A stretch of 10,458 nt of DNA from an uncultured Candidatus Binatia bacterium. GTDB lineage: Bacteria > Desulfobacterota > Binatia > UBA9968 > JAJDTQ01. The stretch lies in contig CBDESP010000005.1 of NCBI GenBank assembly GCA_965242525.1, positions 1 to 10,458 of the forward strand, written 5' to 3'. Below the pieces are notes generated by a model. It ran no database searches. It was not told the DNA's origin and saw only the letters and a program-made list of their open reading frames with translations. Position 1 is the stretch's first letter, and the number at the start of each line of letters is the position of its first letter. Below are positions 1 through 10,458 of the stretch, one piece after another. Both the position numbers and the translations under genes were made by a program.

Positions 1-301
1 GACGGCGCCGAACAAGTCTTCCAGGGTCAGGGTCCCGGTGTCCCCACTGGCGTCGCGCAAGTTCTCCGCCAGGCGCTCGATCAGGTCGTTCGCGAGCGTG
101 GCCCCTTCCGGGACCTTCAGAGCCTTGGTCAGGTACTGGGCAGGGACAAGCCAGCCCGCCAGGTCAAGGCCAAGGTGCAGGGCGTCCAGGGCCGTGTCCT
201 GCCAATCCTGTTGCTCGATCTCCCGCGCCCACCCGCGTCAGCAACGCGCCGTCCTTCACCACGAAACTGACCACGGCTTCCGTGATCGTCTTGAGACTCA
301 T
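1..301 (-). pseudogene. Hypothetical gene with an apparent single-base frameshift near 232-234; runs off the window edge
   Basis: AAGGAGG (306-312) and an ATGA overlap give start 301. This frame stops at 164-166 (45 aa). Deleting one G from cgggtgg joins it to an open frame with high-GC3 codons (LTR-WAREIEQQDWQDTALDALHLGLDLAGW...LFGAV) that continues to position 1. Confidence 0.6.
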
Positions 302-555
302 AGGTCCTCCTTGGACACGATCCGCTCTACCGCCTTGCGTGTCCAGTTGTCCCCGTAGCCGGTCCCGGCTCCCGGGGAGGGTATGCCGAAGGCGTTCAAC
401 GCCTTGGCGATTGCTGCCAGGCTCATTCCCTCACCCTGGCAACGCCGTATCCAGGGGAGAGCGGCGTTGATCCGCTCCATCTTCCGCTCGTTCACGCTCT
501 GTGCGGCCTTGCGGCGGGCGCGGTCTCCCCATCGACTCGTAGGAGATTGAGACAT
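298..555 (-). CDS. Stand-alone recombinase-type (serine recombinase C-terminal) DNA-binding domain protein, about 85 aa
   Basis: GMSLAAIAKALNAFGIPSP......WTRKAVERI matches the G.SL..IA..LN..G..T..G..W....V..I motif. No catalytic resolvase domain upstream. Start uncertain (ATG 555 has no clear RBS). Confidence 0.75.
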   Translation of the reverse strand: MSQSPTSRWGDRARRKAAQSVNERKMERINAALPWIRRCQGEGMSLAAIAKALNAFGIPSPGAGTGYGDNWTRKAVERIVSKEDL

Positions 556-700
556 GATCGACGTTCGTACCATTCGAAAGATCAAACGTAAAGGGGTGAC
601 GGCGAACGTTTGTCTCACGATCTAGGGTCAAATGTCGATCCCGGTCGCAACCCGCCAGGTTGATGAAGATGAAGATCACGGCGGCCCAACAGGGTCTCAT
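431..700 (-). CDS. Possible small lipoprotein, 89 aa (MRPCWAAVIFIFINLAGC-DRDR...)
   Basis: ATG 700 overlaps the portal stop (ATGA). Basic residue, hydrophobic core, then lipobox LAGC with Cys18. However, its 3' part overlaps the next gene out of frame and the 5' part is relatively AT-rich. Confidence 0.35.
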   Translation of the reverse strand: MRPCWAAVIFIFINLAGCDRDRHLTLDRETNVRRHPFTFDLSNGTNVDHVSISYESMGRPRPPQGRTERERAEDGADQRRSPLDTALPG

Positions 701-1764
701 TCGTCCAACCCCGCCAGGCGGCGGGCTTCCTCTACGCTCAGGCCACCGGTGGTCATGCTCTGGAAGGCCCGGGCGCGGCCCTGGACGTCTGCGGCGTAGA
801 GGCGCTCGAACGACACCTTGACCGGCCCGGGCAGCTTGGCGCTGGCCTCGGCTTCCAGCAGGCGGCCCGCTGGCGCCAGGGTGGTGTGAAGGAACGTCCG
901 CAGGTGTTCGCGGATATGGCCGCCGGACAGGGAGACCAGGCCAGGCGGGACGCCGCACACCGAAAGCACGCTCTCGAAGACCTGACGGCGAAGCTCAACG
1001 ACGGCGGCAGGCGGGTCCAGGCCAATACGCCGCGGTTGCCATTCCCCTTGCGGCGCCCGGACCTCCGGCGCCATGCCACCGGACGTTTCCACCAGGGCGG
1101 TTTGTCCCTTGAGGTTGCTCAGGTCGCGCTTGAGCGCGGCGAGCGGGTCCACCGCGTTCCCCTCGCTGTCCGTGATGGTGCTGAGCGGCGCCTTGGGGAT
1201 GGGGATCAAGTAGCCCACCTTGGCGGCGGCTTCCTCGGTGAGCCGCTGTTCCATGCTGGCGGCCATCTTGCCCAGGGTGGCGGCCCATTGCATCGGCCCG
1301 ATGCCCAGGGACGGGTTCGTGGCCTCGTAGCTGTACTGGACGTGCAGGACGTTGGCGGCACCGGTGCGGACGGCCATGGACCCTTCCGGGCCGTTCAGGA
1401 TCAGGTCGTACCGCCAGGAGTTGCGGTCCCGGCCACCGGTGGTGTTGGCGTTGGTTACCGGGTAGAGCGCGGGCATGGCGCCCTCGGACAGGTACAGCAT
1501 GGCTTGTCCGCTCTGGCAGAGGCTTCGGCCCACCCAACCCAATATCGACGGGGTTAGCAGCATGGCCGCTCCGGAAGGAGAGACGCTGGCCATGGTGAAG
1601 CATCGGGACCACCAGCCGGCCGCTGCTTCCAGGGCTGCGGTCCGGAGCGCGGTCAGGGACTCCCCTGTGTTGGCCTGCAGGATGGCCGTTACGATCGCGT
1701 CCGTGTAGTTGCGGTCCTCTGTGGGCGGCGTCCCGGTGCGTTGGGAGAAAGGCCAAAGGGTCAT
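697..1764 (-). CDS. Phage portal protein (HK97-like), 355 aa
   Basis: AALEAAAG.WSR.F, L.QSGQA.LYL, VLHVQY...P..GIGP, SVCGVPPGLV, TLAP...LLEAE and GGLSVEEARRLAGL follow the HK97 portal layout. Start ATG 1764 has an ATGA overlap and GGAGG at 1769-1773. Confidence 0.88.
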   Translation of the reverse strand: MTLWPFSQRTGTPPTEDRNYTDAIVTAILQANTGESLTALRTAALEAAAGWWSRCFTMASVSPSGAAMLLTPSILGWVGRSLCQSGQAMLYLSEGAMPALYPVTNANTTGGRDRNSWRYDLILNGPEGSMAVRTGAANVLHVQYSYEATNPSLGIGPMQWAATLGKMAASMEQRLTEEAAAKVGYLIPIPKAPLSTITDSEGNAVDPLAALKRDLSNLKGQTALVETSGGMAPEVRAPQGEWQPRRIGLDPPAAVVELRRQVFESVLSVCGVPPGLVSLSGGHIREHLRTFLHTTLAPAGRLLEAEASAKLPGPVKVSFERLYAADVQGRARAFQSMTTGGLSVEEARRLAGLDE

Positions 1765-4736
1765 GCTGCCTCCGGTTTCAGGACTATGAATTGGCAACCG
1801 GTGTTTCGGGCCAAGTCCGTTCCCACGCCTGCAGTCGATTTCGTGACGATGTCGAAGAATCCGGGAGAGGCGTTATGGACTTCGTTGATGGGCTGGCCCG
1901 CCCCCCAGGGATTGACCATGGTGATATAGACGTTGTCCGCGAAGGGTTCCGAAAACGTCACCCGGTAGGAGCCTATACCATTCCGCACAACCGACGCGAT
2001 GCCGCGCGACGCAGACAGGTTCGGGTTATGCGTCAGGGTTTCGCTGGCCTGGTCGAACCGGCCCCATAACAGACGGAACCCCAACGGCGCTGCACTGGCC
2101 GCCGCGTCCGTGGGCGTGAAGGTGATCCGCGCCTCCGCGGTGATCGTGGCGCCCGTGGCCCCGGCCTTGCCTTCCCAGTAATGGTAGGTCGCCACCTCGT
2201 TGTTGGCGTTCCTCACCATCAGGAACCGATACGTGCCCACCTCCGTCAAGTTGGAATAGACCACCTGTGTGAAGGCCACCAGGCCGGACAAGCTCTCCGT
2301 GGAGCTGAACACGAAGGCGTCCACCTGCGCCAGGTCGGAGGCGAACAGGATATTGGACAGGTCCACACGCCGCTGTTCCGCGGTCTGGTTCACTCCCTGT
2401 TGGAAGCCCATGTTTGCGTCGGACACCGGCGCAATGGTCAGGGTCAGGGCAAGGTGGAACTCCCCGCGTCCATTGCCTTCTGTGTCCAGGTCGAAGACGG
2501 GAGACAGGGCGGTGGGCGCCGCTGGGCGCTGGTTGCGGTCCGTGCGCGCCAGGGTCATGCCCGGGAACTCATGGTCCAGCAGGGACGTACCGGGGACGTG
2601 CGGGATGGCCCCGTCCACGTAGGCCTTGACCTTGGCGGCGTCGGGAACCCGGTCCGCCGTGCCTGCGGCCATTTGCGCGGTGGTGGCCAGGTCGTCCGTG
2701 TAGACCGTGGTCATGGGCAGCTTGATCTTGCCCCACCTGGTTCCGTTCCCGGTCCGGGCTTGCTCCAGTATCCGGTTGTCCACCTGTCCCAGGGTCAGGC
2801 GGTTCCGGGCGTCCGGCTGCCAATGGTTGTCCACACGTCCCGTCAGGGAGAACGGGGTGACGTGTTCGGCGTCGGTGTAGAGGTTCAACAGGTAGTGCTT
2901 GGCGCCGGTGATCTCCGGGAGCTTCGGGCCGTCCGACGTCCGGTGGTATGCCCATCGGGTGACCGGCGAACCGTCATCCCCGCTGGACCGGTCCAGGACG
3001 ATCTCGTTGAAGCTCCCGTTGTCCGTCTCCAACTCCCCGTAGAGGGTGGCCGGTATGGTCTGGTCCGTGCCCACGTACCAGCCGCGCGGGATGTAGAGCC
3101 GGATGTTGCCGGGGTTGGCTTGCGTGTTCCACTGGAAGACCGCGTCGCCCTGGTAGTTCGCCAGGGGCGTTCCCGCCAGGCCCGCGATCTGGTTCAGGCT
3201 CAGGTTGTCCGTGCCTTCGACAAGCTCGTAGAGCTCCCCGTCCACGTTCACCAGGTCGCCCACGGTGTAGCCCGCGATGCCCGGTATGGCGTCGAAGTGC
3301 TGCACGGCCTTGACGGTGGCGTTCCCGAAGCGGGTCTCTCGTCCGTTGGGCGCTACGGTCAGCACTTCCCCGGCGTCGCCTATGGCGAAGTCAGGGACCC
3401 GGCGCGCTACGGGTATCCGGGCGTCCACCAGGGCGTTGATTTCGGCGTCCGTGCGTTGGGTGTTTGTGTCCGTGTCCGTGGCCGCGATGGTGAAGGTCTG
3501 TGCGGCGCCGCTGCCCGAAGGCGTGATGCTGACGTTGCCCCCGGCAACCAGGGCCGCTGCGATCTGTGCGCGGATGTCGGCGTCGGAGCGGGTGGTGTCC
3601 GTGTCTCCCGGACTGGCGGCAATGGTGACGATACGGTTGTCCCCGCTGCCCGAAGGCGTCAGGGTGACGTTGGCCCCTGCCGCCAGCATCCGTTGAACCT
3701 CGGCGCGGATTTCGGCGTCCGTGCGTTGGGTGTTTGTGTCCGTGTCCGTGGCCGCGATGGTGAAGGTCTGTGCGGCGCCGCTGCCCGAAGGCGTGATGCT
3801 GACGTTGCCCCCGGCAACCAGGGCCGCTGCGATCTGTGCGCGGATGTCGGCGTCGGAGCGGGTGGTGTCCGTGTCTCCCGGGGTGGCCGCGATGGTGAGG
3901 ATTCGGTTGTCTCCGCGGCCCGAAGGCGTGATGGTGATGTTCGCCCCGGCCGCCAGCATCTGTTGAACCTCGGAGCGGATCTCGGTGTCCGTCCGTTGGG
4001 TGTTGGTGTCGGTGTCCGTGGCCGCGATGGTGAAGGTCTGTGCGGCGCCGCTGCCCGAAGGCGTGATGGTGACGTTGCCCCCGGCAACCAGGGCCGCTGC
4101 GATCTGTGCGCGGATGTCGGCGTCCGTCCGCGGGTTGACCGTGCCTTGGGACGCGGGCAGGTTGATGTCTGTGCGCTGTCCGGCAGAGGATACGAACGTC
4201 AGCACGGCCCCGGATATGGAGACCCCGTCGAAAGGCACGCTCTTGTTCAGGGTGGACACCACGCCGGCCGCCAGTTGATCCACGCCGATGGACCCGTCCG
4301 CAACCGGGGTTGGTTGCGGTTGCGGCAACGCCAGGCGCACTTCCTGAGCGTTGCTGAAGGTGATGACCAGGGTGGAGCCGTCGATGGCGACGGCGGTTAC
4401 GTAGTGACCGGCAATGGACGCGACGGACAGGGCCGCGGCGGCGTCCGAAGAGAGGATGGCGGCCCCTTGGATCAGGTAGTCGGACAGCAGGGCCGCGGCC
4501 CCGCTGTTCACGAACGGCCTTGCCCAACCCATGCTGCCCGCGGACTCGGGCATGTCGTAGATGTAGGCCACCAGGCGAATGAACGCCTCTTTCTTGACCG
4601 CGTCCGGAACCGGACTATTGTTGATGCGGGTGTCGAGCCAGGCGTCGAGCGCTGGTGACAGGGTGGTCAAACGTGGATCGTCCGCGGCAATGCGGAGAGC
4701 CGCGGCAAGCTCGGCATTGGTGGCGGGAGCGGCCAT
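1761..4736 (-). CDS. Head-tail connector (HK97 gp6/SPP1 gp15-like) N-terminal domain fused to a repeat-containing fibre/adhesin-like protein, 991 aa
   Basis: Residues ~1-95 (ELAAALRI..DD..L...VPDAVKKEAFIRLVAYIYD...SGAAALLSDY) fit gp6-like connectors. Then come beta-rich segments, five 45-aa repeats, and a C-terminal WGRFD...GIASVVRNGIGSYRVTF..PF.D..Y domain resembling phage fibre tips. TAGATG junction upstream, ATGA downstream. Confidence 0.75.
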   Translation of the reverse strand: MAAPATNAELAAALRIAADDPRLTTLSPALDAWLDTRINNSPVPDAVKKEAFIRLVAYIYDMPESAGSMGWARPFVNSGAAALLSDYLIQGAAILSSDAAAALSVASIAGHYVTAVAIDGSTLVITFSNAQEVRLALPQPQPTPVADGSIGVDQLAAGVVSTLNKSVPFDGVSISGAVLTFVSSAGQRTDINLPASQGTVNPRTDADIRAQIAAALVAGGNVTITPSGSGAAQTFTIAATDTDTNTQRTDTEIRSEVQQMLAAGANITITPSGRGDNRILTIAATPGDTDTTRSDADIRAQIAAALVAGGNVSITPSGSGAAQTFTIAATDTDTNTQRTDAEIRAEVQRMLAAGANVTLTPSGSGDNRIVTIAASPGDTDTTRSDADIRAQIAAALVAGGNVSITPSGSGAAQTFTIAATDTDTNTQRTDAEINALVDARIPVARRVPDFAIGDAGEVLTVAPNGRETRFGNATVKAVQHFDAIPGIAGYTVGDLVNVDGELYELVEGTDNLSLNQIAGLAGTPLANYQGDAVFQWNTQANPGNIRLYIPRGWYVGTDQTIPATLYGELETDNGSFNEIVLDRSSGDDGSPVTRWAYHRTSDGPKLPEITGAKHYLLNLYTDAEHVTPFSLTGRVDNHWQPDARNRLTLGQVDNRILEQARTGNGTRWGKIKLPMTTVYTDDLATTAQMAAGTADRVPDAAKVKAYVDGAIPHVPGTSLLDHEFPGMTLARTDRNQRPAAPTALSPVFDLDTEGNGRGEFHLALTLTIAPVSDANMGFQQGVNQTAEQRRVDLSNILFASDLAQVDAFVFSSTESLSGLVAFTQVVYSNLTEVGTYRFLMVRNANNEVATYHYWEGKAGATGATITAEARITFTPTDAAASAAPLGFRLLWGRFDQASETLTHNPNLSASRGIASVVRNGIGSYRVTFSEPFADNVYITMVNPWGAGQPINEVHNASPGFFDIVTKSTAGVGTDLARNTGCQFIVLKPEAA
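3438..4130 (-). repeat. Intragenic tandem repeat: 135-bp (45-aa) units arranged A-B-A-B-A plus a partial unit, 270-bp higher-order period
   Basis: cggatgtcggcgtc recurs at 3571, 3841 and 4111. 3438-3611 and 3708-3881 are identical over 174 bp by manual comparison. A = R(T/S)DADIRAQIAAALVAGGNV(T/S)ITPSGSGAAQTFTIAATDTDTNTQ. B = RTDxEIRxEVQxMLAAGANxTxTPSGxGDNRIxTIAAxPGDTDTT. Confidence 0.97.
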
Positions 4737-5300
4737 CTACATCAACCCTCGTAGCAGGTTGCGGCGGTAGCGGTCTGCCCGGGACAGCTCGGGCGGCGCC
4801 GCGTCGCGGTCCAGGGTGGACCGGGGATACGCCGGTTGCGCCACCAGGCCCAGGCCGTAGAGGGTGGCGGCCTGGATCGTCCGGTGCTGCCCGTCCCAGG
4901 AGTCCTTGTCCACGCGGAACTCGGCAGAGAAGGACGCCAGCACACCCATGCGGATCAGCTCCACGGCCTCGCGTCCGTCCGCTGTGTCGGGAAGGTCGAA
5001 CTCTGCCCGGACTTCGCGGTCCCCGAAGTCGAGGCTCATGTTGCCCGGGCGGCTGGCCAGCAGGCGGCTGCGGTCGTGCAGGATGTTGGCGACGATGGGC
5101 CCCGAGTAGGGCTTCATGGCCCCGGCCTCGAACTCTTCGGTGAAGGCGCCGATCCCGGCTACGTCTCCGTAGCGCAGGATGACGCCGGACACCTTGCCCA
5201 GGCCGGTCTTGTCCTCGCGGAACTCCATGTCCAGGGGCGCGGCGGGCGCCCCCAGGTAGCGCAGTTCGAGGGCTGGTTTGGCGTAGATTTTACCGGCCAT
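4737..5300 (-). CDS. HK97-family prohead protease (Peptidase S78-like), 187 aa
   Basis: SG..LRYG...F.E.FEAGA, NILHDR (His), DLPDT.DGRE..EL.R.G.LASFS.EF (Ser) and LV..PAYP. True start is ATG 5300 with AGGTGG upstream. The longer 399-aa track ORF overlaps MCP. Confidence 0.9.
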   Translation of the reverse strand: MAGKIYAKPALELRYLGAPAAPLDMEFREDKTGLGKVSGVILRYGDVAGIGAFTEEFEAGAMKPYSGPIVANILHDRSRLLASRPGNMSLDFGDREVRAEFDLPDTADGREAVELIRMGVLASFSAEFRVDKDSWDGQHRTIQAATLYGLGLVAQPAYPRSTLDRDAAPPELSRADRYRRNLLRGLM

Positions 5301-5308
5301 GATTCCAC

Positions 5309-6625
5309 CTACGACGTCTTGAGCCGGAAGAACGTGTCCGGACGGATCACCTTGAAGTCGTGCAGGATGATGGACGTCAACGCCACCTCGCCCTTGGCGG
5401 CGCCGCTGTACACGTCCCGGATCAGGCTCATGGTGGGCCACATGGCATAGACCGCGGCGTTGGCCCGGCCCACCGGCAGACTGCCCAAGCCCACGATGTC
5501 GTTGGCCGCCAGGGCTGCGGTGGTCATGTTGCCCGCGACGCGCCAGGTGTATCCTTGGCGCCGCAGCACGTCCGCAATGGTGTCGTTGTTGTTCGCGCTC
5601 GCGAACAGGCTGGTCAGGGCGCGGAACAGGGTGGGCGCCAGCACCAGGGAGACTTCCCCGGTGGTCTGTGCCCGGATGCCGTCGATCAGCTCGTTCAAGC
5701 CCGTGATCGTCTGCGTGAACAGGTTGGGACCGTTGGCGATCTGCGCGCGCCAGGTCTTGGTGATCTCCTTGACGCCGGTGGCGGCGTCCAGGCCGGTGAT
5801 ATCCGCGTCCGTCCCGGTCCCGCTGTCCTCGCCCTCGAGGATGGCGGTATCGGCGCCCACCCGGACCGCCATCTCCAGGTCGGACCGCAGTTGCTCCTCG
5901 AGGCGCTCGATACGGGCCGTGTCCTCGATGCGCCACACGTACCGGGCAGACATGCGCTTGGGCGTCATGGTCAGGCTCGACAGGGTAGCCGCGGTCGCGT
6001 CCACCTCTTGGGACCGGGCGCGCTGGACCGGGTCGTTCGAGCTGGTGAGGATCAGGTATTCGGGGTCTCCCACGCCAGGGCTTGCCATCGTCACCCCGAG
6101 GTAGCCGGCCAACGTGGGCCGGAACAGGCGGCCCAACCAGGCCTGCACGCCGGCGCTGTTCTCCCCGAAGTCCACCGCGGGCGCGGTGACGGCGTCGACG
6201 CGCTCCTCGATGGGCGCCTGGACGGAGCGTTGCGCCAGGAGCTCCATCGGAAGCTGCACGATGCCGGACTCCGGAATGGCCCGGGCCGCGTTGAGTTCGG
6301 CCTCGGCGCCGGACAGCTTCTCCTCGGTCAGGGCGGACCGGACGTAGTGGCCGATCTTCACCTTGTCCAGCAGGCCCCGGATTTCGGCGCCCTCGCCCCC
6401 GGCGTGGGCGTCCTCGATGGCCGCGGCGGCGGCTTCTTCGGCGACGGCGGTCCGGTACTCACTTTCGAGTTGCAGGATACGGGACGTTGCTTCGCCGATT
6501 TGCCGGTCCAGGTCCGGGGATGGGGAGCCATCCGTGGTTGCCAGGGGGTGATCCGGGCGGCTCAGGTCTCCCAGGGTGGACCGAGCCTCGGACAGTTGTA
6601 CCAGCAGTTCTTGGGACTTTCTCAC
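5309..6625 (-). CDS. Major capsid protein (HK97 fold) with N-terminal coiled-coil scaffolding (delta-like) region, 438 aa
   Basis: Helical charged N-terminus, then capsid-like motifs LTMTPKRMSA, LRSDLEMAV....DTAILEG...ITGL, LIRDVYSGAAKGEVAL and HDFKVIRPDTF. Strongest RBS of the structural genes. Adjacent to the protease. Confidence 0.88.
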   Translation of the reverse strand: MRKSQELLVQLSEARSTLGDLSRPDHPLATTDGSPSPDLDRQIGEATSRILQLESEYRTAVAEEAAAAAIEDAHAGGEGAEIRGLLDKVKIGHYVRSALTEEKLSGAEAELNAARAIPESGIVQLPMELLAQRSVQAPIEERVDAVTAPAVDFGENSAGVQAWLGRLFRPTLAGYLGVTMASPGVGDPEYLILTSSNDPVQRARSQEVDATAATLSSLTMTPKRMSARYVWRIEDTARIERLEEQLRSDLEMAVRVGADTAILEGEDSGTGTDADITGLDAATGVKEITKTWRAQIANGPNLFTQTITGLNELIDGIRAQTTGEVSLVLAPTLFRALTSLFASANNNDTIADVLRRQGYTWRVAGNMTTAALAANDIVGLGSLPVGRANAAVYAMWPTMSLIRDVYSGAAKGEVALTSIILHDFKVIRPDTFFRLKTS

Positions 6626-6629
6626 ATCG

Positions 6630-6636
6630 ACCTCCT
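6630..6636 (-). promoter_or_regulatory. Strong Shine-Dalgarno (AGGAGGT) for the major capsid gene
   Basis: AGGAGGT lies 4 nt upstream of GTG 6625 and overlaps the upstream TAG. Confidence 0.8.
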
Positions 6637-7240
6637 AGTCTGGAACGCGCGGCGGTGACGTATTCGCCGCACCCTCGTAAAAAGCCTTCTTCATGCGCCG
6701 GAACAGGGCTTCCGATGACAGGAGTTCCCTGACTCGCGGCACCCAACGAGCGTAGTAGCAGGCTCCCGGGGGAGCGTTGTAGCGGACTTCCAGGAACCCG
6801 TTGGCCCTGTTGAACCCTTTTAATTCCACTTCCACTGCTTGTTTGAGCGAGTGTTTGAGCTTCCCGGTTCGGGCAGGCGTCTTCCTCAGCAGGTATTGCT
6901 TGGTTTGTGAATGCAAGGCTATCCTTGTCTCGTCCTCGAAACTCCTTAGCACCCTCCGAACCTCATAGCGTGGCAATTCCCTTCCCGCTCTTATGCGGAA
7001 ATGCAACCGTCGAAAGGTTTCGACTCGGTTGAACCGCCCCTTTCCCTTGTTGAGCCTTGCGAGGATTTCATAGTCATCGGGGCGAAGGTCCCGCCGGCTT
7101 CTACCATCATTGCCGGGTGCGATGCCTCTCTGACCTCTTCGCCTGCGTCCTCTTAGCCTGCGTACTCTCCGCAGAGCCTTGAAGGCGGCGGGGGACGCCG
7201 CGGCGAGCGCAAACCTGGCAAAAAATAACCCGAAAGCCAT
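6635..7240 (-). CDS. HK97 gp10-like neck/tail-completion protein with hydrophobic and Arg-rich N-terminal extension, 201 aa
   Basis: TPARTGKLKHSL...YYARWV resembles the gp10-family P.dTG.Lr.S...YA.yVE motif. Lies directly after the gp16-like gene. Start set at ATG 7240 by the TGATG overlap. Confidence 0.55.
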   Translation of the reverse strand: MAFGLFFARFALAAASPAAFKALRRVRRLRGRRRRGQRGIAPGNDGRSRRDLRPDDYEILARLNKGKGRFNRVETFRRLHFRIRAGRELPRYEVRRVLRSFEDETRIALHSQTKQYLLRKTPARTGKLKHSLKQAVEVELKGFNRANGFLEVRYNAPPGACYYARWVPRVRELLSSEALFRRMKKAFYEGAANTSPPRVPD

Positions 7241-8109
7241 CAGACCGCTACCCGTTGAATCATGGTCAGGGTTTGCCACTTCCGGCGCCCGACCTCGTCG
7301 ATGGACTGGATTTCATAGACGAACGAGAAATCGTCCGCAATCCTGACCCAGTCTCCCACCCGGAAGCGGGCATCGTAACGGACGGTCATGTTCACGGTCT
7401 GGAGTTCCGTCTGGTTGCCTTCCTCGTCGGCTTCGAGGATGCTTCCCACGCCGCCCTCGAGGCGGGCGTAGAACTCGAAGGTGTCTGGCGCTGGTGCAGA
7501 GTCTGCGGCGTCCCGAACGGACATGCCGGTAACCATACGATCGTCAGCCGTTGTTTGCGGGCGCTCCAGAACATAGGACACGCCTCCTGTTTCTTGCCGC
7601 CATCCTACGGTGGGAGAACCGAAAGCAACCGGTGCACGCCCAATCGTCAAGGTCATTGTCCAGAAAGGATCTGACCATGCTTCGGTCTCAGGGTCTTGAT
7701 AGTACCCTTCGAAGATGATGGTTTTGCCTATCTCCAGGAAATCATCCGGTATGGCCCGGCCCGGCCCGAACGGTCCGGTTACCGACATGACAGGGATAAT
7801 GAAACCCCGAACAGGCCATTGGCCAAATGGCCGGTTCGCACTAAGGGTTACTCCGAACAACCATTTGATGGGGAGGATATGGTCTGAAAATGGACGCCGA
7901 AATCCGAAGCCTTGCCCGTCCCAATCGCTGCCGTCGAACGTTCTGGCATTGAAGGGAGTAGCTGAAACGGGAACTGGATTGGCCACATAGCCCAGGTAAT
8001 ACGGCCCGCCGGTGGGTCTTCGGGGTTGAGTAGTAAACCCGCCCGTGCACTTCGTCGCCAATGCGCGACCGGCGACGGCCGCGGCGTAGGCGTCGACGTC
8101 AGGCGGCAT
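7240..8109 (-). CDS. Head-closure / head-tail adaptor (SPP1 gp16-like) C-terminal domain with a ~180-aa N-terminal extra region, 289 aa
   Basis: The C-terminal FYARL...G...E.....Q...TVNMTVRYDARFRVGDWVRI....VYEIQSIDEVGRRKWQTL matches the gp16/head-tail-joining pattern. GAGGGG precedes ATG 8109. 11-nt overlap with HNH. Confidence 0.72.
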   Translation of the reverse strand: MPPDVDAYAAAVAGRALATKCTGGFTTQPRRPTGGPYYLGYVANPVPVSATPFNARTFDGSDWDGQGFGFRRPFSDHILPIKWLFGVTLSANRPFGQWPVRGFIIPVMSVTGPFGPGRAIPDDFLEIGKTIIFEGYYQDPETEAWSDPFWTMTLTIGRAPVAFGSPTVGWRQETGGVSYVLERPQTTADDRMVTGMSVRDAADSAPAPDTFEFYARLEGGVGSILEADEEGNQTELQTVNMTVRYDARFRVGDWVRIADDFSFVYEIQSIDEVGRRKWQTLTMIQRVAV

Positions 8110-8428
8110 GGGGTCCCCTCGGGTCCCGTGTGGACGGCGGCGGCATCGTCACCTTGCCCCCCTGGATCAGTCGCAACCGGGCGCCCCACGCCGATCTACC
8201 CTTGACCTTCTCGTTCTCCTTGGCGGTCTTGGCGAAGTGACAGTCCCGGCAGAGGGTCTGCAGGTTGTCCAGGGTATTCCCGCCGCCGTGCTTGAGCGGC
8301 TTCACGTGGTCGCACTCCAGGCGCCCGGCCCGTCCGCACTTCACACACCGGTAGCCGTCCCGGATGAAGACTTGCTCCCGAAGGACCGCCCACATGGTGG
8401 TCCGGTATTGGCGTTGGTTCGGCGTCAT
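8099..8428 (-). CDS. HNH endonuclease (HK97 gp74-like packaging-associated), 109 aa
   Basis: W..LR..V..RDGYRCVKC...ECDHVKP...GG.N..DNLQTLCRDCH..KT is a canonical HNH with two CxxC. Start moved to ATG 8428 because of the ATGA overlap. Confidence 0.93.
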   Translation of the reverse strand: MTPNQRQYRTTMWAVLREQVFIRDGYRCVKCGRAGRLECDHVKPLKHGGGNTLDNLQTLCRDCHFAKTAKENEKVKGRSAWGARLRLIQGGKVTMPPPSTRDPRGPHAA

Positions 8429-8535
8429 TGGCATTTCTCGCAGGTCCGCAGCAGGGCGAAGCCGCAACTGGCGCCGGTGCAGGTCCACTCACGGTCACAG
8501 ACCCCGCAGAGGTGCGGGTGTGGATGCCCGCTCAT
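8425..8535 (-). CDS. Small Cys/His-rich protein, 36 aa (MSGHPHPHLCGVCDREWTCTGASCGFALLRTCEKCQ)
   Basis: Translated by hand and absent from the ORF track. ATGA overlaps at both ends (8532-8535 and 8425-8428) exactly fill the gap between neighbours. 6 Cys including two CxxC, plus 3 His. Confidence 0.72.
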   Translation of the reverse strand: MSGHPHPHLCGVCDREWTCTGASCGFALLRTCEKCQ

Positions 8536-8711
8536 ATGCTCCCCACGTCGTGCCATGCCGTGTGTATCTGCAGGCACCTTTTGCAGGTGACCTTGACGGT
8601 GGCGGGATCGTCTGACGCTGTGACGCGGTGCAGAGTCCGCAGGACGCGGCCGCAGTAGGACCGGATCACGCCGGTAGCGTAATTCTCGTAGGCTTTGTGT
8701 TTGGTCTTCAT
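8532..8711 (-). CDS. Small putative Zn-binding protein, 59 aa (MKTKHKAY...YCGR...VTCKRC...)
   Basis: ATG 8711 overlaps the terL stop (ATGA, 8708-8711). H...CG...CxxC pattern. This is the C-terminal part of the 118-aa track ORF, whose upstream part overlaps terL. Confidence 0.7.
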   Translation of the reverse strand: MKTKHKAYENYATGVIRSYCGRVLRTLHRVTASDDPATVKVTCKRCLQIHTAWHDVGSI

Positions 8712-10405
8712 AGCAATGTCACCCTGTCGAAGCCCACGTTCTGAACTTGCTCCGCAAGACCCGCGGCAATCACGGCGCTGGACAGGGCATCTATTCGCCC
8801 CGCGAATCGTGCCTTGTCCAGCGCGGGGTTGCCCGCGGCGTCGTAGCGTAGTTGGGAGTCGCCTATAGCGCTCTCCATGATGGTGCACGGGTCCATGAAG
8901 CGGATACGGCGCTGCAACACCGCTCGCTGAAAGGCCCGGATGTCCCGGCTACCGTCCGCGGTGGGGCTGGCGCCCGTTCCGCGCCACACCATCCGCCAGT
9001 CCAGGCCCGCGTCTCTCAGGTACTGTGTGACTTCGTTACGCCGGTAGCGGTCGGCTCCCGCTGCGAGGACCGGATGTCCGGCTACCCGATTGGCGAGGAA
9101 GGCCAGGAACGGCGCTACCGGCGTAACGAGACCGGGGTAGATCGTCAAGGCGCCCTCGGACGCCATTTGCAGATACAGGGTTCCCACGCCGTCCGCTTTA
9201 CCGCGGGCGGCCAGGGATGGCAAGTCGCCGAAGGCGCCATAGGCTTCACACCGTCCGGTCTCCGTCCAGAGGATCACCGCTGCCGTCATGCTGGCGGCGC
9301 CGCCGGCGTCGAAGCCGATCACCACCGGCCCCCGGTCCTCGGGCAGGTCCTCGGGCTGGCACAGGACCTTCTCCCAGGCGCCCACGGAGACGATCATCTC
9401 TTGCGACGGTTCGACCTCTTGGTTCAGGTCGTAGGCCCGGAAGGCGGATTCGTCGGCAGGGATGGCCGCTGCGTGTTCCGCTTCTCCCCGCATGTAGTCC
9501 ATGCTCTTGATGCCGAAATCCAGGCCGGGGTTGGCGGCGCGCCAGGCGTCTTCGTCGGTGAGTTTGCACCTGGCGGGCGCCGCGTACAGGTGGACGTTTA
9601 CGACGTCCTGTTTTCGGCGCTCGATCATTTCCCGCGTGAACGGCGCAAGGCCCCGAATAGACAGGGCAATGAACCGGCCCGAGCGGGCCGAAATCGAAGA
9701 CCGCATACCGTTCACGAGCTCGCGGTGCCGCTCCTCCAGCAGGCCGATTTCGTCCACGATGGCGTCGTCGAAGCCGCTCGCATGGCCGGCGCTCTTGTCC
9801 GCAGAGAGGATATCGACGGCGCCCGTGGTGGACACCACGCGGCCCGGCGCCGGAGTGCGAAGGAACCGGACCTTGGACAACAGGTTGCTGGCTGTGGCAA
9901 TGGCTTCCATCTGCATGCGCAGCTCGTTGGCCTTCTCTTTGGTAACGCTGGTGACCCCGCCCCGGTATCCCCGGATGTGGAGTCCGGGCAGTCCGCTACA
10001 GAGACGCGCCAGCAGAAACGCGGCGATGATGGCGGACTTGGCGTTCTTCCGGGCGATGCATAGCAGACTCTCACGAGCATGTAGGGCATCCCGGATGAAG
10101 TCGATACCGTAGGGCGGTATCACCAGGGGCTGGCCGGCGTTGGCGTGCCCCGGCGGAACCTTGAGGGTGTCGCGGCACCACTTCGCCAGGGCCAGCCCCA
10201 CTTCGAGGGGCTGGGGCTTGGGCCGGACGGCGCCAGGGAGAAGGTCCGATTGACCGGCGCCCGGAACAGGCGACGGTTCCTTCAACCCTCCGCCTTGCGA
10301 TTTGGGCTTGGGTCCTCGCTTCCCGGTAGGGGTGCCTCGGTTCTCCCTCCACCACTTCCGCTTGGCGGCTTTGGCTCGTTCGTCGTGGGGGTTCTTATAG
10401 GGCAT
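8708..10405 (-). CDS. terL: Phage terminase large subunit (HK97/Terminase_1-like), 565 aa
   Basis: Walker A-like CIARKNAKS, Walker B AIVDEIG, W..ANPGL motif, and RNase H-like nuclease motifs VVIGFDAGG, ADRYRR and RIDALSSAV. No clear Shine-Dalgarno before ATG 10405, so the start is less certain. Confidence 0.93.
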   Translation of the reverse strand: MPYKNPHDERAKAAKRKWWRENRGTPTGKRGPKPKSQGGGLKEPSPVPGAGQSDLLPGAVRPKPQPLEVGLALAKWCRDTLKVPPGHANAGQPLVIPPYGIDFIRDALHARESLLCIARKNAKSAIIAAFLLARLCSGLPGLHIRGYRGGVTSVTKEKANELRMQMEAIATASNLLSKVRFLRTPAPGRVVSTTGAVDILSADKSAGHASGFDDAIVDEIGLLEERHRELVNGMRSSISARSGRFIALSIRGLAPFTREMIERRKQDVVNVHLYAAPARCKLTDEDAWRAANPGLDFGIKSMDYMRGEAEHAAAIPADESAFRAYDLNQEVEPSQEMIVSVGAWEKVLCQPEDLPEDRGPVVIGFDAGGAASMTAAVILWTETGRCEAYGAFGDLPSLAARGKADGVGTLYLQMASEGALTIYPGLVTPVAPFLAFLANRVAGHPVLAAGADRYRRNEVTQYLRDAGLDWRMVWRGTGASPTADGSRDIRAFQRAVLQRRIRFMDPCTIMESAIGDSQLRYDAAGNPALDKARFAGRIDALSSAVIAAGLAEQVQNVGFDRVTLL

Positions 10406-10458
10406 CGAGCGGCTCTAGTCGGGAACGGAATCTAGGCAACCCTACCGCTTCTAGGGAA

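What the first reader, a model, noticed from the sequence alone, without database searches (positions are those of the whole stretch)
697..10405. Tail-less, permuted head module (terL-HNH-closure-gp10-MCP-protease-connector-portal): candidate new capsid-forming satellite or tail-less particle system
Seen: a full packaging, head and neck set with the portal last, followed directly by non-structural-looking genes. No tail tube, terminator, chaperone or tape measure gene follows the neck genes. Established: HK97-like phages order genes terS-terL-portal-protease-MCP-neck-tail, whereas cf-PICIs encode capsid, protease, portal, connector, adaptor, HNH and terminases but no tail, and borrow helper tails. 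Inference: this is a cf-PICI-like element with a different permutation, an extra gp10-like gene and enlarged neck proteins, so possibly a distinct family that hijacks tails or does without them.
Basis: partly seen in the sequence, partly recalled or inferred. Interest (0 to 1): 0.8.

Follow-up and report, generated by a model that had tools for sequence, protein, structure and literature searches.

The report
Tail-less capsid-forming episome, satellite-like
This contig is about nine tenths of an 11-kb DNA element that carries the genes to build and fill its own phage head and neck but has no tail, integrase or replication genes, so it most likely spreads by borrowing tails from another phage.

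Summary
On the minus strand lie TerL, HNH, a head-closure-like protein, an HK97-gp10-like protein, major capsid protein, S78 protease, a 991-aa adaptor-fibre fusion and portal.

The window is a whole contig, so its ends say nothing about tails. A second genome, G170, settles this. Its contig C2 holds about 2.5 head-to-tail copies, 98-99% identical to the window, with a unit of 11.2-11.55 kb. The 1.05 kb missing from the window encodes a GH24 lysozyme, the rest of a 119-aa ORF, a doubtful 77-aa ORF and non-coding DNA. There is no tail, integrase or replicase.

Distant relatives (MCP 30-40% identical) keep the order TerL-HNH-MCP-protease-X-portal in MAGs of at least six bacterial lineages. They are 9-12 kb islands, and 10 of 13 annotated ones carry an integrase. 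None has a recognised tail tube, tape-measure, sheath or baseplate gene; one has a spike-like domain.

One chromosomal CRISPR spacer matches the element's TerL exactly.

Best reading: a capsid-forming, tail-less satellite-like element, organised like cf-PICIs but episomal. I rate it a new variant of a known kind. Helper dependence is inferred, not shown.

The parts
8708..10405 (-). Large terminase (565 aa)
   Evidence: PF20441 TerL_nuclease E 4.6e-12. phrog_9 E 4e-40. Nearly identical among copies C4, C6 and G170, with dS 0-0.002.
10083..10117 (.). Protospacer inside TerL, matched 35/35 by spacer 5 of the CRISPR array at G000:C1:435889-439392
   Evidence: It is 1 of 52 spacers. The same match occurs in C4 and in G170:C2.
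8532..8720 (-). Possible small Cys-containing ORF (about 62 aa) in the TerL-HNH gap; doubtful
   Evidence: ORF list and translation. No family at E <= 0.1.
8099..8488 (-). HNH endonuclease (129 aa), the partner of TerL in HK97-type cos packaging
   Evidence: PF01844 E 7.7e-13. phrog_589 E 1.5e-24. dN/dS 0.14-0.33 between copies.
7240..8109 (-). p289: head-closure/stopper-like neck protein. The C-terminal barrel of about 85 aa is conserved; the rest is hypervariable.
   Evidence: AlphaFold model has mean pLDDT 52.6, with residues 210-289 better. VIA top rows are phage neck chains: 6tba_3A Z 9.9, 8hdr_A 9.5, 3f3b_A 9.0, 9mu2_C 8.1. BFVD hits are labelled head-tail adaptor/joining, SPP1 gp16-like. 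ESM lead to PF05521 at 0.84. Only 3 homologues found among 5.8 billion proteins. Alignment A2.
6635..7279 (-). p214: HK97 gp10-family-like neck/tail-completion protein with a hydrophobic and then Arg-rich N-terminus
   Evidence: hhalign of the four variants against the HK97 'gp10 family protein': probability 78%, E 1.8e-5, 48 columns including the P-x-R-T-G-K-L-K motif. No Pfam, PHROG, PDB, ESM or word-search hit.
5309..6625 (-). Major capsid protein (438 aa), HK97 family, with an N-terminal helical delta-like region
   Evidence: PF05065 E 8.5e-7, 29.1 bits against a cut-off of 24.2. 199 homologues at E <= 1e-5. dN/dS 0.07-0.40 in 10 pairs of copies.
4737..5300 (-). Prohead serine protease (187 aa)
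   Evidence: PF04586 Peptidase_S78 E 3.1e-13. phrog_80 E 7.4e-14. Start placed at 5300.
1761..4736 (-). 991-aa head-tail adaptor (residues 1-~95) fused to roughly 45-aa repeats and a C-terminal part of about 520 aa; a fibre-like neck appendage
   Evidence: N-terminal model has pLDDT 83.6. The first 33 of 50 VIA rows are all phage neck or portal-tail entries, including HK97 gp6 3jvo_A at Z 7.8 with 86 of 96 residues aligned. 341 proteins share the N-terminal domain and range from 88 to 1285 aa. Repeat region is 31% identical, E 3e-14, to a 1909-aa 'tail protein' of Erythrobacter phage XM05.
3438..4124 (.). Tandem repeat inside the adaptor-fibre gene, period 135/270 nt; copy number differs between variants
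   Evidence: TRF. Self and cross BLAST.
697..1797 (-). Portal protein (366 aa)
   Evidence: PF04860 E 2.4e-13. dN/dS 0.19-0.28.
298..618 (-). 106-aa helix-turn-helix protein; regulator or small-terminase candidate, function open
   Evidence: Weak PF07508 Recombinase HTH segment, E 2.1e-4, 40 residues. phrog_95, E 8.6e-5.
1..297 (-). First 99 codons of a 119-aa acidic ORF that runs off the contig. In C3, C5 and G170:C2 it is followed by a GH24 lysozyme.
   Evidence: Lysozyme PF00959 E 1.5e-28 at L004:491-1039.

Best explanation
The window is about 90% of an 11.2-11.55 kb extrachromosomal element. The element builds its own small HK97-type head and neck and packages its own DNA. It has no tail, integrase or recognisable replication gene.

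All genes lie on one strand: TerL, HNH, closure-like, gp10-like, MCP, S78 protease, adaptor-fibre, portal, a 106-aa HTH protein, a 119-aa ORF and a GH24 lysozyme. A non-coding junction of 0.3-0.7 kb closes the unit.

Proposed cycle:
1. The DNA is copied into head-to-tail concatemers. A concatemer contig is observed; the replication machinery is inferred to come from the host or a helper.
2. MCP assembles on the portal and is matured by the protease. This is inferred from the families.
3. TerL with HNH cuts unit lengths at a cos-type site, presumed to lie in the junction, and fills the capsid. This is inferred from HK97-type systems.
4. The adaptor, closure-like and gp10-like proteins seal the portal and present a docking surface. 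Folds are shown; function is inferred.
5. A tail made by a co-infecting helper phage joins that surface, as in capsid-forming PICIs. This step is inferred and not shown.

The twelve adaptor-borne fibres and the hypervariable neck proteins would set host or helper specificity.

Distant relatives of the same head module are integrated 9-12 kb islands with an integrase. This lineage is therefore an integrase-less, episomal branch of a wide family of capsid-forming satellites.
For: Gene identities.

Closed unit:
- G170:C2 (28,408 bp) is about 2.5 head-to-tail copies at 99.7-99.9% identity to each other and 98-99% to the window.
- Window 1-10458 corresponds to G170:C2 12481-22622. The next copy starts 1,047 or 1,407 bp later.
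- That gap holds only the lysozyme, the rest of the 119-aa ORF, a doubtful 77-aa ORF and non-coding DNA.

Not in the chromosome:
- No copy of the MCP or TerL in G000:C1, and no DNA match to the window in G170:C1.
- Portal and TerL families hit only the element's contigs in both genomes. Tape-measure family PF10145 hits nothing.

The copies are real and functional:
- There are four variant copies in G000.
- dN/dS is 0.07-0.40 for MCP (10 pairs), 0.19-0.28 for portal and 0.14-0.33 for HNH.
- The same variants recur in contigs of 4 runs from 2 studies.

An invader rather than a host organelle: 1 of 52 spacers of the CRISPR array in G000:C1 matches TerL 35/35.

Family architecture:
- In 29 related loci, the protease follows MCP in 22 and the portal follows MCP in 20 (counting the circular L050).
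- HNH lies upstream of MCP in 20 loci and TerL upstream in 17.
- The portal lies between TerL and MCP in 0 of 29.
- Of 13 loci annotated, 10 have an integrase at the edge and are bounded by housekeeping genes.
- No PHROG 'tail' hit and no Pfam tube, tape-measure, sheath or baseplate family was seen in 136 ORFs (Pfam), 130 ORFs (PHROGs) and 30 ORFs (PHROGs).
- The same PHROG scan found tube, terminator and tape-measure genes in the control record L057.
- L050 (9,736 bp, from the viral collection) has a 55-bp exact terminal repeat, so it is a closed circle with the same genes.
Against: - No helper phage was identified. No other portal, TerL or tape-measure match exists in either chromosome.
- No small terminase, holin or replication initiator was recognised.
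- The lysozyme and the fibre-like adaptor extension are not features of described cf-PICIs. They would also fit a self-sufficient particle.
- The p289 model is poor overall (pLDDT 52.6). The Z scores of 8-10 and 6-8 lie in the range the tool calls 'middling'.
- hhalign of p289 against HK97 gp7, and of the adaptor domain against HK97 gp6, found nothing.
- One relative, L028, has a 213-aa protein just upstream of TerL with Pfam PF18352, E 2.2e-18. The name is masked in the output; I recall it as a central-spike N-terminal domain.
- Host assignment rests on binning plus one spacer. The same element sits in the bins of two genomes of different families.
- The tandem contig could be an assembler's rendering of a small circle rather than a real concatemer.
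Confidence: 0.55

Rival explanations
1. It is a self-sufficient miniature virus. The adaptor-fibre, closure-like and gp10-like proteins form a stub 'tail' on the portal. The twelve fibres adsorb to the host, the lysozyme serves entry or lysis, and host enzymes replicate the DNA. No helper is needed.
For: - It has its own GH24 lysozyme.
- The adaptor is fused to repeats shared with a phage 'tail protein' and to a hypervariable C-terminal part, as in receptor-binding proteins.
- Many podovirus portal-tail adaptors appear among the fold matches.
- No helper-like portal, TerL or tape-measure gene is in either host chromosome.
- Read depth is high: 426-1268 in run X1 outside the variable region.
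- The element is targeted by CRISPR, as a virus would be.
Against: - No nozzle, tube or needle protein, no holin and no replication protein was recognised.
- The relative L048 has only TerL-MCP-protease-portal beside an integrase and a DnaB-like helicase, with no neck gene recognised. That cannot make an infectious particle alone.
- An 11-kb tailed-virus genome without a tail would have no precedent that I know of (recalled, not searched).
Confidence: 0.2
2. It is the head module of an ordinary tailed phage whose tail, replication and lysogeny genes lie on other DNA that was not binned or assembled. That DNA could be a second segment or a mis-joined assembly.
For: - The window and its three sister contigs all break at the same junction.
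- Short-read contigs run 49-126 nt past the window's right end.
- The nearest TerL in the phage collection (26% identity) belongs to a tailed phage that also has its portal after the MCP.
Against: - G170:C2 runs through the junction twice and returns to the same genes each time.
- Integrated relatives are bounded by an integrase and housekeeping genes with no tail genes.
- The circular L050 is only 9.7 kb.
Confidence: 0.07
3. It is a domesticated gene-transfer-agent-like or otherwise host-serving particle system, or a decaying remnant.
For: It is a head-only gene set, and the top structural match of p289 is a chain of the RcGTA virion.
Against: - It is not in the chromosome.
- Its own DNA is abundant and tandemly repeated.
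- It occurs as several mosaic variants under purifying selection.
- The host's CRISPR array targets it.
- Relatives carry integrases.
Confidence: 0.04

Closest known systems
Capsid-forming PICIs (cf-PICIs, prototype EcCIEDL933; preprint 10.1101/2022.09.08.507074 and NAR 2023 PMC10085698, passages read)
   Same: - It encodes its own MCP, prohead protease, portal, head-tail adaptor/connector, HNH and TerL, and has no tail genes.
- It is small, 11-15 kb.
- In proteobacterial cf-PICIs the order is capsid-protease-portal-connectors and then hnh-terS-terL, so the portal also comes after the capsid.
   Different: - This element has no integrase, no AlpA-type regulator, no primase-replicase and no recognised TerS.
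- It is extrachromosomal and tandemly repeated, not an island.
- TerL precedes HNH, and two neck genes sit between HNH and MCP.
- The adaptor is fused to a long fibre, and there is a GH24 lysozyme.
- Sequence relatedness to cf-PICI proteins was not tested, because I had no cf-PICI sequence in hand.
- Helper dependence is shown for cf-PICIs but not here.
Streptomyces satellite viruses MiniFlayer and MulchRoom (ISME J 2023, PMC10690885; abstract and passages read)
   Same: They are small genomes (17.4 kb for MiniFlayer) with terminase, portal, MCP, head-to-tail adapter and HNH but no key replication genes. MiniFlayer has no integrase and does not integrate.
   Different: - They come from a different phylum and were isolated with their helpers.
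- They have direct terminal repeats and a scaffold protein.
- The abstract says MiniFlayer has a tail adaptation that attaches it to the helper.
- No sequence comparison was made here.
HK97-like cos phages with HNH-assisted terminase (HK97 record NC_002167)
   Same: - HK97-fold MCP with an S78 protease.
- gp6-like adaptor fold.
- gp10-family-like protein.
- HNH plus TerL, with TerL about 25% identical to HK97-like coliphages.
   Different: - HK97 is ordered terS-terL-portal-protease-MCP-Ad1-Hc1-gp10-terminator-tube-tape measure, and is 39.7 kb.
- The element lacks everything from the terminator onward, and its order is permuted.
RcGTA-type gene transfer agents
   Same: It is a small head-neck gene set. 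p289 and the adaptor domain match chains of the GTA virion 6tba, at Z 9.9 and 6.4.
   Different: By recall, GTAs are chromosomal, carry tail genes and package host DNA. This element is episomal, tail-less, abundant as its own DNA and CRISPR-targeted.
Marine VEIMEs and PICMIs (PNAS 2022 PMC9618062, passages read; Nat Commun 2024 PMC10803314, abstract in search listing only)
   Same: They are small elements seen as concatemeric repeats, and a fraction of them lack an integrase.
   Different: The VEIME paper states that they encode no major capsid genes and ride in helper-sized capsids. This element encodes a complete head.

Membership tests
cf-PICI (SatelliteFinder's 11 core components) | Own capsid, prohead protease and portal | tested here: met
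   PF05065, PF04586 and PF04860.
cf-PICI | Own TerL and HNH | tested here: met
   PF20441 and PF01844. phrog_9 E 4e-40.
cf-PICI | [quoted passage not shown] | tested here: met
   By fold only. The adaptor N-terminal domain matches HK97 gp6 and other neck adaptors. p289 matches stopper-type neck proteins. The models are of moderate to low confidence.
cf-PICI | Small terminase | tested here: inconclusive
   No TerS family hit on any small ORF at E <= 1. The 106-aa HTH protein is a candidate only.
cf-PICI | Integrase; element integrated in the chromosome | tested here: not met
   The closed unit has no integrase. There is no copy in G000:C1 and no DNA match in G170:C1. By contrast, 10 of 13 annotated distant relatives have an integrase.
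cf-PICI | AlpA-type regulator and primase-replicase | tested here: not met
   No such family on any ORF of the unit. Replication genes were recognised in 4 of 13 relatives: L043, L047, L048 and L036.
cf-PICI | No tail and no holin genes | tested here: met
   None found in the unit. The tail-gene scan worked on the control L057.
cf-PICI | Capsid and TerL fall in one of the three described cf-PICI clades | not tested
   No cf-PICI sequence was available. A DNA search of E. coli genomes with relative L031 found nothing.
cf-PICI / any phage satellite | Spread depends on a helper phage's tails | not testable with these tools
   This needs particles or co-culture.
Complete HK97-like tailed phage | Tail terminator, tube, tape measure and baseplate in the same genome | tested here: not met
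   The closed unit is 11.2-11.55 kb and lacks them. PF10145 is not found in G000 or G170.
Gene transfer agent | Chromosomal, host-controlled cluster that packages host DNA | tested here: not met
   It is not chromosomal. Its own DNA is at high depth and in tandem copies. What the particles contain is not testable here.
Integrase-less 'satellite virus' of the MiniFlayer type | Encodes the encapsidation machinery but lacks replication genes and an integrase | tested here: met
   This is likeness of kind only; homology was not tested.

The most novel reading that the evidence does not exclude
The element is an autonomous, helper-independent virus of about 11 kb. It would be the smallest HK97-lineage dsDNA virus. 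Its 'tail' would be only a portal cap of adaptor, stopper-like and gp10-like proteins, with twelve adaptor-borne fibres that find the host. It would be replicated entirely by host enzymes and would persist as an episome.
Probability: 0.17. Interest if true: 0.9.

Novelty: new variant of a known kind. Interest (0 to 1): 0.66.

Why it matters
Capsid-forming satellites are described so far mainly from Proteobacteria and Firmicutes, as integrated islands. The record titles place this head module in MAGs labelled Alphaproteobacteria, Rhodospirillales, Paracoccaceae, Longimicrobiales, Binatia, Dehalococcoidia, Bryobacterales and Azotimanducaceae. That means head-only parasites of phages are far more widespread than current surveys show.

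The lineage in this window adds several traits:
- It has no integrase or replicase.
- It persists as tandem or circular DNA.
- Its adaptor is fused to a fibre.
- Its neck proteins are the most variable part of the genome, while TerL is almost invariant.

This pattern points to an arms race at the head-tail joint or at the host surface. It also offers a compact natural system, with 11 kb and about 12 genes, for studying minimal capsid assembly and tail docking.

Tried and rejected
**Searches that found nothing**
- Other small contigs of G000 (C2, C7) as carriers of the tail genes: 35 ORFs are metabolic, regulatory or glycosyltransferase genes.
- tRNA scan of the window: none.
- Rfam on the window, L055 and L004: none.
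- Promoter and terminator scan of the junction: 0 promoter-like and 1 terminator-like site, no more than in shuffles.
- Repeat scan of the junction: only short repeats.
- MCP against the phage collection by tblastn: no match at 1e-5.
- MCP profile against PDB sequences: none at 0.01.
- The C-terminal 522 aa of the 991-aa protein against phages: none.
- The whole 991-aa protein, p289 and p214 against PDB sequences: nothing meaningful.
- Foldseek of the adaptor model against PDB: no match at E <= 0.001; the VIA search did find matches.
- ESM Atlas for p214: no usable hit.
- Word-indexed homologue search for p214: none.
- hhalign of p289 against HK97 gp7 and of the adaptor against HK97 gp6: nothing.
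- tblastn of the accessory genes (HTH106, p119, lysozyme, 77-aa ORF, p214, p289, 62-aa ORF) against 29 related loci: nothing below E 0.02.
- DNA search of E. coli genomes with L031, to reach a cf-PICI: no match.

**Readings I dropped**
- I first read the low-GC, low-depth stretch 6632-8027 as cargo or defence genes. I dropped this because all copies carry diverged homologues there.
- I first guessed an actinobacterial host from a DUF222-HNH gene on C7, and dropped that too.
- The 12.9-kb 'Ralstonia phage' records looked like possible satellites. They turned out to be a fragment of a tailed phage.

- Chromosome read depth, for a copy-number estimate.
- Earlier findings and paper supplements were closed. 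Supplement tables of PMC10085698 listing cf-PICI coordinates might have allowed the homology test.

Full report
**What the window is.** The 10,458-base window is the whole of contig C6 of assembly G000. That assembly has a 4.15-Mb contig C1 and six small contigs. GC is 58-69% along the window, lowest at about 6.5-8 kb. There is no tRNA gene. Codon-position GC and family scans show that all real genes lie on the minus strand.

**The genes.**
- TerL, 10405-8708: PF20441 E 4.6e-12; phrog_9 E 4e-40.
- HNH, 8488-8099: PF01844 E 7.7e-13.
- Major capsid protein, 6625-5309: PF05065 E 8.5e-7, above the curated cut-off.
- S78 prohead protease, 5300-4737: PF04586 E 3.1e-13; start placed.
- Portal, 1797-697: PF04860 E 2.4e-13.

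Three further ORFs had no Pfam or PHROG match and needed other methods.

1. **The 991-aa ORF, 4736-1761.**
   - Its first 160 residues have 341 relatives at E <= 0.001 among 1.84 billion representatives. They are always N-terminal, on proteins of 88 to 1285 aa.
   - The AlphaFold model built from 35 of them has pLDDT 83.6.
   - Its residues 1-90 align best to head-tail adaptors. The first 33 of the 50 rows shown are all phage neck or portal-tail entries. They include HK97 gp6 (3jvo_A: Z 7.8, rmsd 3.3, 86 of 96 residues) and the SaPI1 neck (9mu2_A: Z 7.5).
   - These Z values are in the range the tool calls middling. Foldseek found nothing at E <= 0.001.
   - Behind the adaptor domain come roughly 45-aa repeats (TRF period 135/270 nt at 3438-4124). 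They are 31% identical (E 3e-14) to part of a 1909-aa 'tail protein' of Erythrobacter phage XM05.
   - The last 520 or so residues match nothing.
2. **p289, 8109-7240.**
   - It has a conserved C-terminal part of about 85 aa and an otherwise hypervariable sequence.
   - Only 3 homologues were found among 5.8 billion proteins.
   - The model is poor (mean pLDDT 52.6; residues 210-289 at 56-82).
   - Even so, its best matches are neck proteins: RcGTA virion 6tba_3A Z 9.9, Pam3 neck Z 9.5, PBSX XkdH Z 9.0 and SaPI1 neck 9mu2_C Z 8.1.
   - BFVD hits are labelled head-tail adaptor or joining, SPP1 gp16-like.
   - An ESM lead points to PF05521 at 0.84, which the tool rates as a lead only.
3. **p214, 7279-6635.**
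   - The four variants, aligned and compared with HK97's own 'gp10 family protein', give hhalign probability 78%, E 1.8e-5, over 48 columns.
   - Every other search was blank.

**Is it really tail-less?** The window cannot say, because it ends 53 bases upstream of TerL and inside a gene at its left end.
- G000 holds three sister contigs (C3, C4, C5) that are 93-99% identical in parts and unrelated in others. None of them is in C1.
- Contigs C2 and C7 carry ordinary cellular genes (35 ORFs).
- All four element contigs break within about 0.3 kb of each other.
- Short-read contigs of public runs continue 49, 94 and 126 bases past the window's right end (records 8, 32, 16). So the contig ends are assembly breaks, not molecule ends.
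- A search of 400 other genomes of the phylum found the element in one, G170. That genome is of the same class but another family, and consists of a chromosome plus contig C2.
- G170:C2 (28,408 bp) is about 2.5 head-to-tail copies, 99.7-99.9% identical to each other and 98-99% to the window.
- The window corresponds to positions 12481-22622. The next copy begins 1,047 bp further on, or 1,407 bp in the other junction, which carries an extra 360 bp.

That missing stretch, which is also present on C3 and C5, encodes:
- the rest of the 119-aa ORF;
- a GH24 lysozyme (PF00959 E 1.5e-28; phrog_7 endolysin E 1.6e-31);
- a doubtful 77-aa Cys-rich ORF.

The rest of it is non-coding DNA. The complete unit is thus 11.2-11.55 kb, with no tail, integrase or recognisable replication gene. 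In G000 and G170 the portal and TerL families hit only these contigs, and tape-measure family PF10145 hits nothing.

**The copies are alive.**
- Between copies, dN/dS is 0.07-0.40 for MCP (10 pairs), 0.19-0.28 for portal (3 pairs) and 0.14-0.33 for HNH (3 pairs).
- TerL is almost identical among its three copies, with dS 0-0.002.
- The neck genes p289 and p214 and the C-terminal half of the adaptor-fibre are the most divergent parts.
- In run X1, summed contig depth is 426-1268 in the 26 bins outside 6632-8027, and 102-186 in the 4 bins inside it. This fits many variants that share the head genes but differ in the neck genes.
- Four runs from two studies hold the element.

**Link to the host.**
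- G000:C1:435889-439392 is a CRISPR array of 53 repeats.
- Spacer 5 matches window 10083-10117, inside TerL, at 35 of 35 bases. It also matches C4 and G170:C2.
- The other 51 spacers match none of these contigs over 22 nt or more.
- This ties the element to this host lineage and marks it as an invader.

**The wider family.**
- The MCP has 199 homologues at E <= 1e-5 among the 8000 candidates scored. Many sit on contigs of 6-12 kb.
- A profile scan returned 26 loci in species-representative genomes and 3 in viral contigs.
- In these 29 loci, by tblastn with the window's proteins:
  - the protease follows MCP in 22;
  - the portal follows MCP in 20, counting the circular L050;
  - HNH lies upstream of MCP in 20;
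  - TerL lies upstream of MCP in 17;
  - no locus has the portal between TerL and MCP.
- L031 has the cyclic permutation int-MCP-protease-X-portal-TerL-HNH.
- I annotated 13 loci. Six were scanned with Pfam over all 136 ORFs, with PHROGs on 30 of their unexplained ORFs. Seven were scanned with PHROGs over 130 ORFs.
- Ten of the 13 have a tyrosine integrase at one edge and housekeeping genes outside. For example, L047 runs from integrase to portal in about 11.2 kb between an FAD-binding-protein gene and a CoA-transferase gene. L035 lies between two pieces of an ssb gene.
- Four of the 13 have a recognisable replication gene (L043, L047, L048, L036).
- No tail tube, tape-measure, sheath or baseplate hit appeared.
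- The one tail-like item is a 213-aa protein upstream of TerL in L028 with PF18352, E 2.2e-18. Its name is masked in the output; by recall it is a central-spike N-terminal domain.
- The PHROG scan did find tube, terminator and tape-measure genes in the control record L057.
- L050 (9,736 bp) has a 55-bp exact terminal repeat and the same head genes, with no integrase hit.
- In the window's own genus, 10 of 27 other genomes have an MCP relative at E <= 1e-5, at most 43% identical.
- The window's accessory genes have no counterpart in the 29 loci.

**Comparison with what is known.**
- The cf-PICI preprint (passages read) describes 15-kb islands with capsid, protease, portal, head-tail connectors, HNH, TerS and TerL and no tail genes. 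For Proteobacteria it gives the order capsid-protease-portal-connectors and then hnh-terS-terL. Portal-after-capsid is therefore not new.
- SatelliteFinder's cf-PICI model (passages read) has 11 core components, including an integrase, a regulator and a primase-replicase. The weakest type it reports still has 9. This element shows 7 and lacks those three, with no TerS recognised.
- It resembles the integrase-less, replicase-less Streptomyces satellite virus MiniFlayer in kind (abstract and passages read).
- It differs from marine VEIMEs, which encode no capsid gene (passages read).
- Its TerL is about 25-26% identical to those of HK97-like coliphages and of a Ralstonia tailed phage.
- Whether its MCP or TerL falls within a described cf-PICI clade could not be tested.
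- My searches of the paper library returned nothing describing this family (capsid-forming/satellite/tail; VEIMEs/capsid/portal; cf-PICIs; tycheposons/capsid/satellite). These searches were not exhaustive.

**Verdict.** The most likely nature is a capsid-forming, tail-borrowing satellite-like element that lives as an episome (confidence 0.55). It is a new variant of a known kind. The bolder reading, an autonomous virus with only a fibre-bearing neck, is not excluded (about 0.17).

Noticed in passing
G000:C1:435889-439392 (outside the window); protospacer at window 10083-10117: A CRISPR array of 53 repeats and 52 spacers. Spacer 5 matches the element's TerL 35/35. The other 51 spacers have no match of 22 nt or more on the element contigs.
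   Followed up: partly
G170:C2 (L054/L055), junctions at 11434-12480 and 22623-24029: The junction between tandem units comes in two forms that differ by a 360-bp stretch of non-coding DNA. That stretch holds CGTC-type short repeats and a small hairpin. All four G000 contigs break there. It may hold the cos site or an origin.
   Followed up: partly
L057 (ON170149.1, 12,905 bp): A record filed as 'Ralstonia phage YO088_5' is a fragment ordered terS-terL-protease-MCP-portal-Ad1-Hc1-terminator-tube-tape measure. The portal therefore also comes after the capsid gene in an ordinary tailed phage.
   Followed up: yes
L028:6672-7310: In one integrated relative, a 213-aa protein just upstream of TerL carries Pfam PF18352 (E 2.2e-18; name masked in the output). 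It is the only tail-like domain seen in the family.
   Followed up: no
L035:5683-5904 and 16136-16366: Two pieces of a single-strand-binding protein gene flank a 10-kb member of the family, with the integrase after the portal. The element appears to be inserted in ssb.
   Followed up: no
window 6635-7279 (N-terminus of p214) and its homologues: The gp10-like protein begins with a conserved hydrophobic stretch followed by an Arg-rich run in three of four variants. This is unusual for a neck protein and could mean membrane association.
   Followed up: no
window 8708-10405 versus 5309-6625: TerL is almost identical among copies (dS 0-0.002), while MCP differs at dS 0.06-0.20. The copies are mosaics with a recently shared packaging module.
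   Followed up: partly
G000:C1:1388434-1388750: Short DNA similarity (81-91% over 45-116 nt) to the element's HNH gene in the chromosome. The context was not examined.
   Followed up: no
G012:C1:196454-202630 and 2041772-2041927: A same-genus genome has several TerL-like stretches 65-69% identical in DNA to the window's TerL, and two MCP relatives. It may hold several integrated members of the family.
   Followed up: no
L045:2921-4012 and 5097-6188: Beside a degraded member (no TerL, partial MCP), two identical copies of a DruA/DDE_Tnp_1_assoc-domain gene sit next to a PIN-domain gene and the integrase.
   Followed up: no
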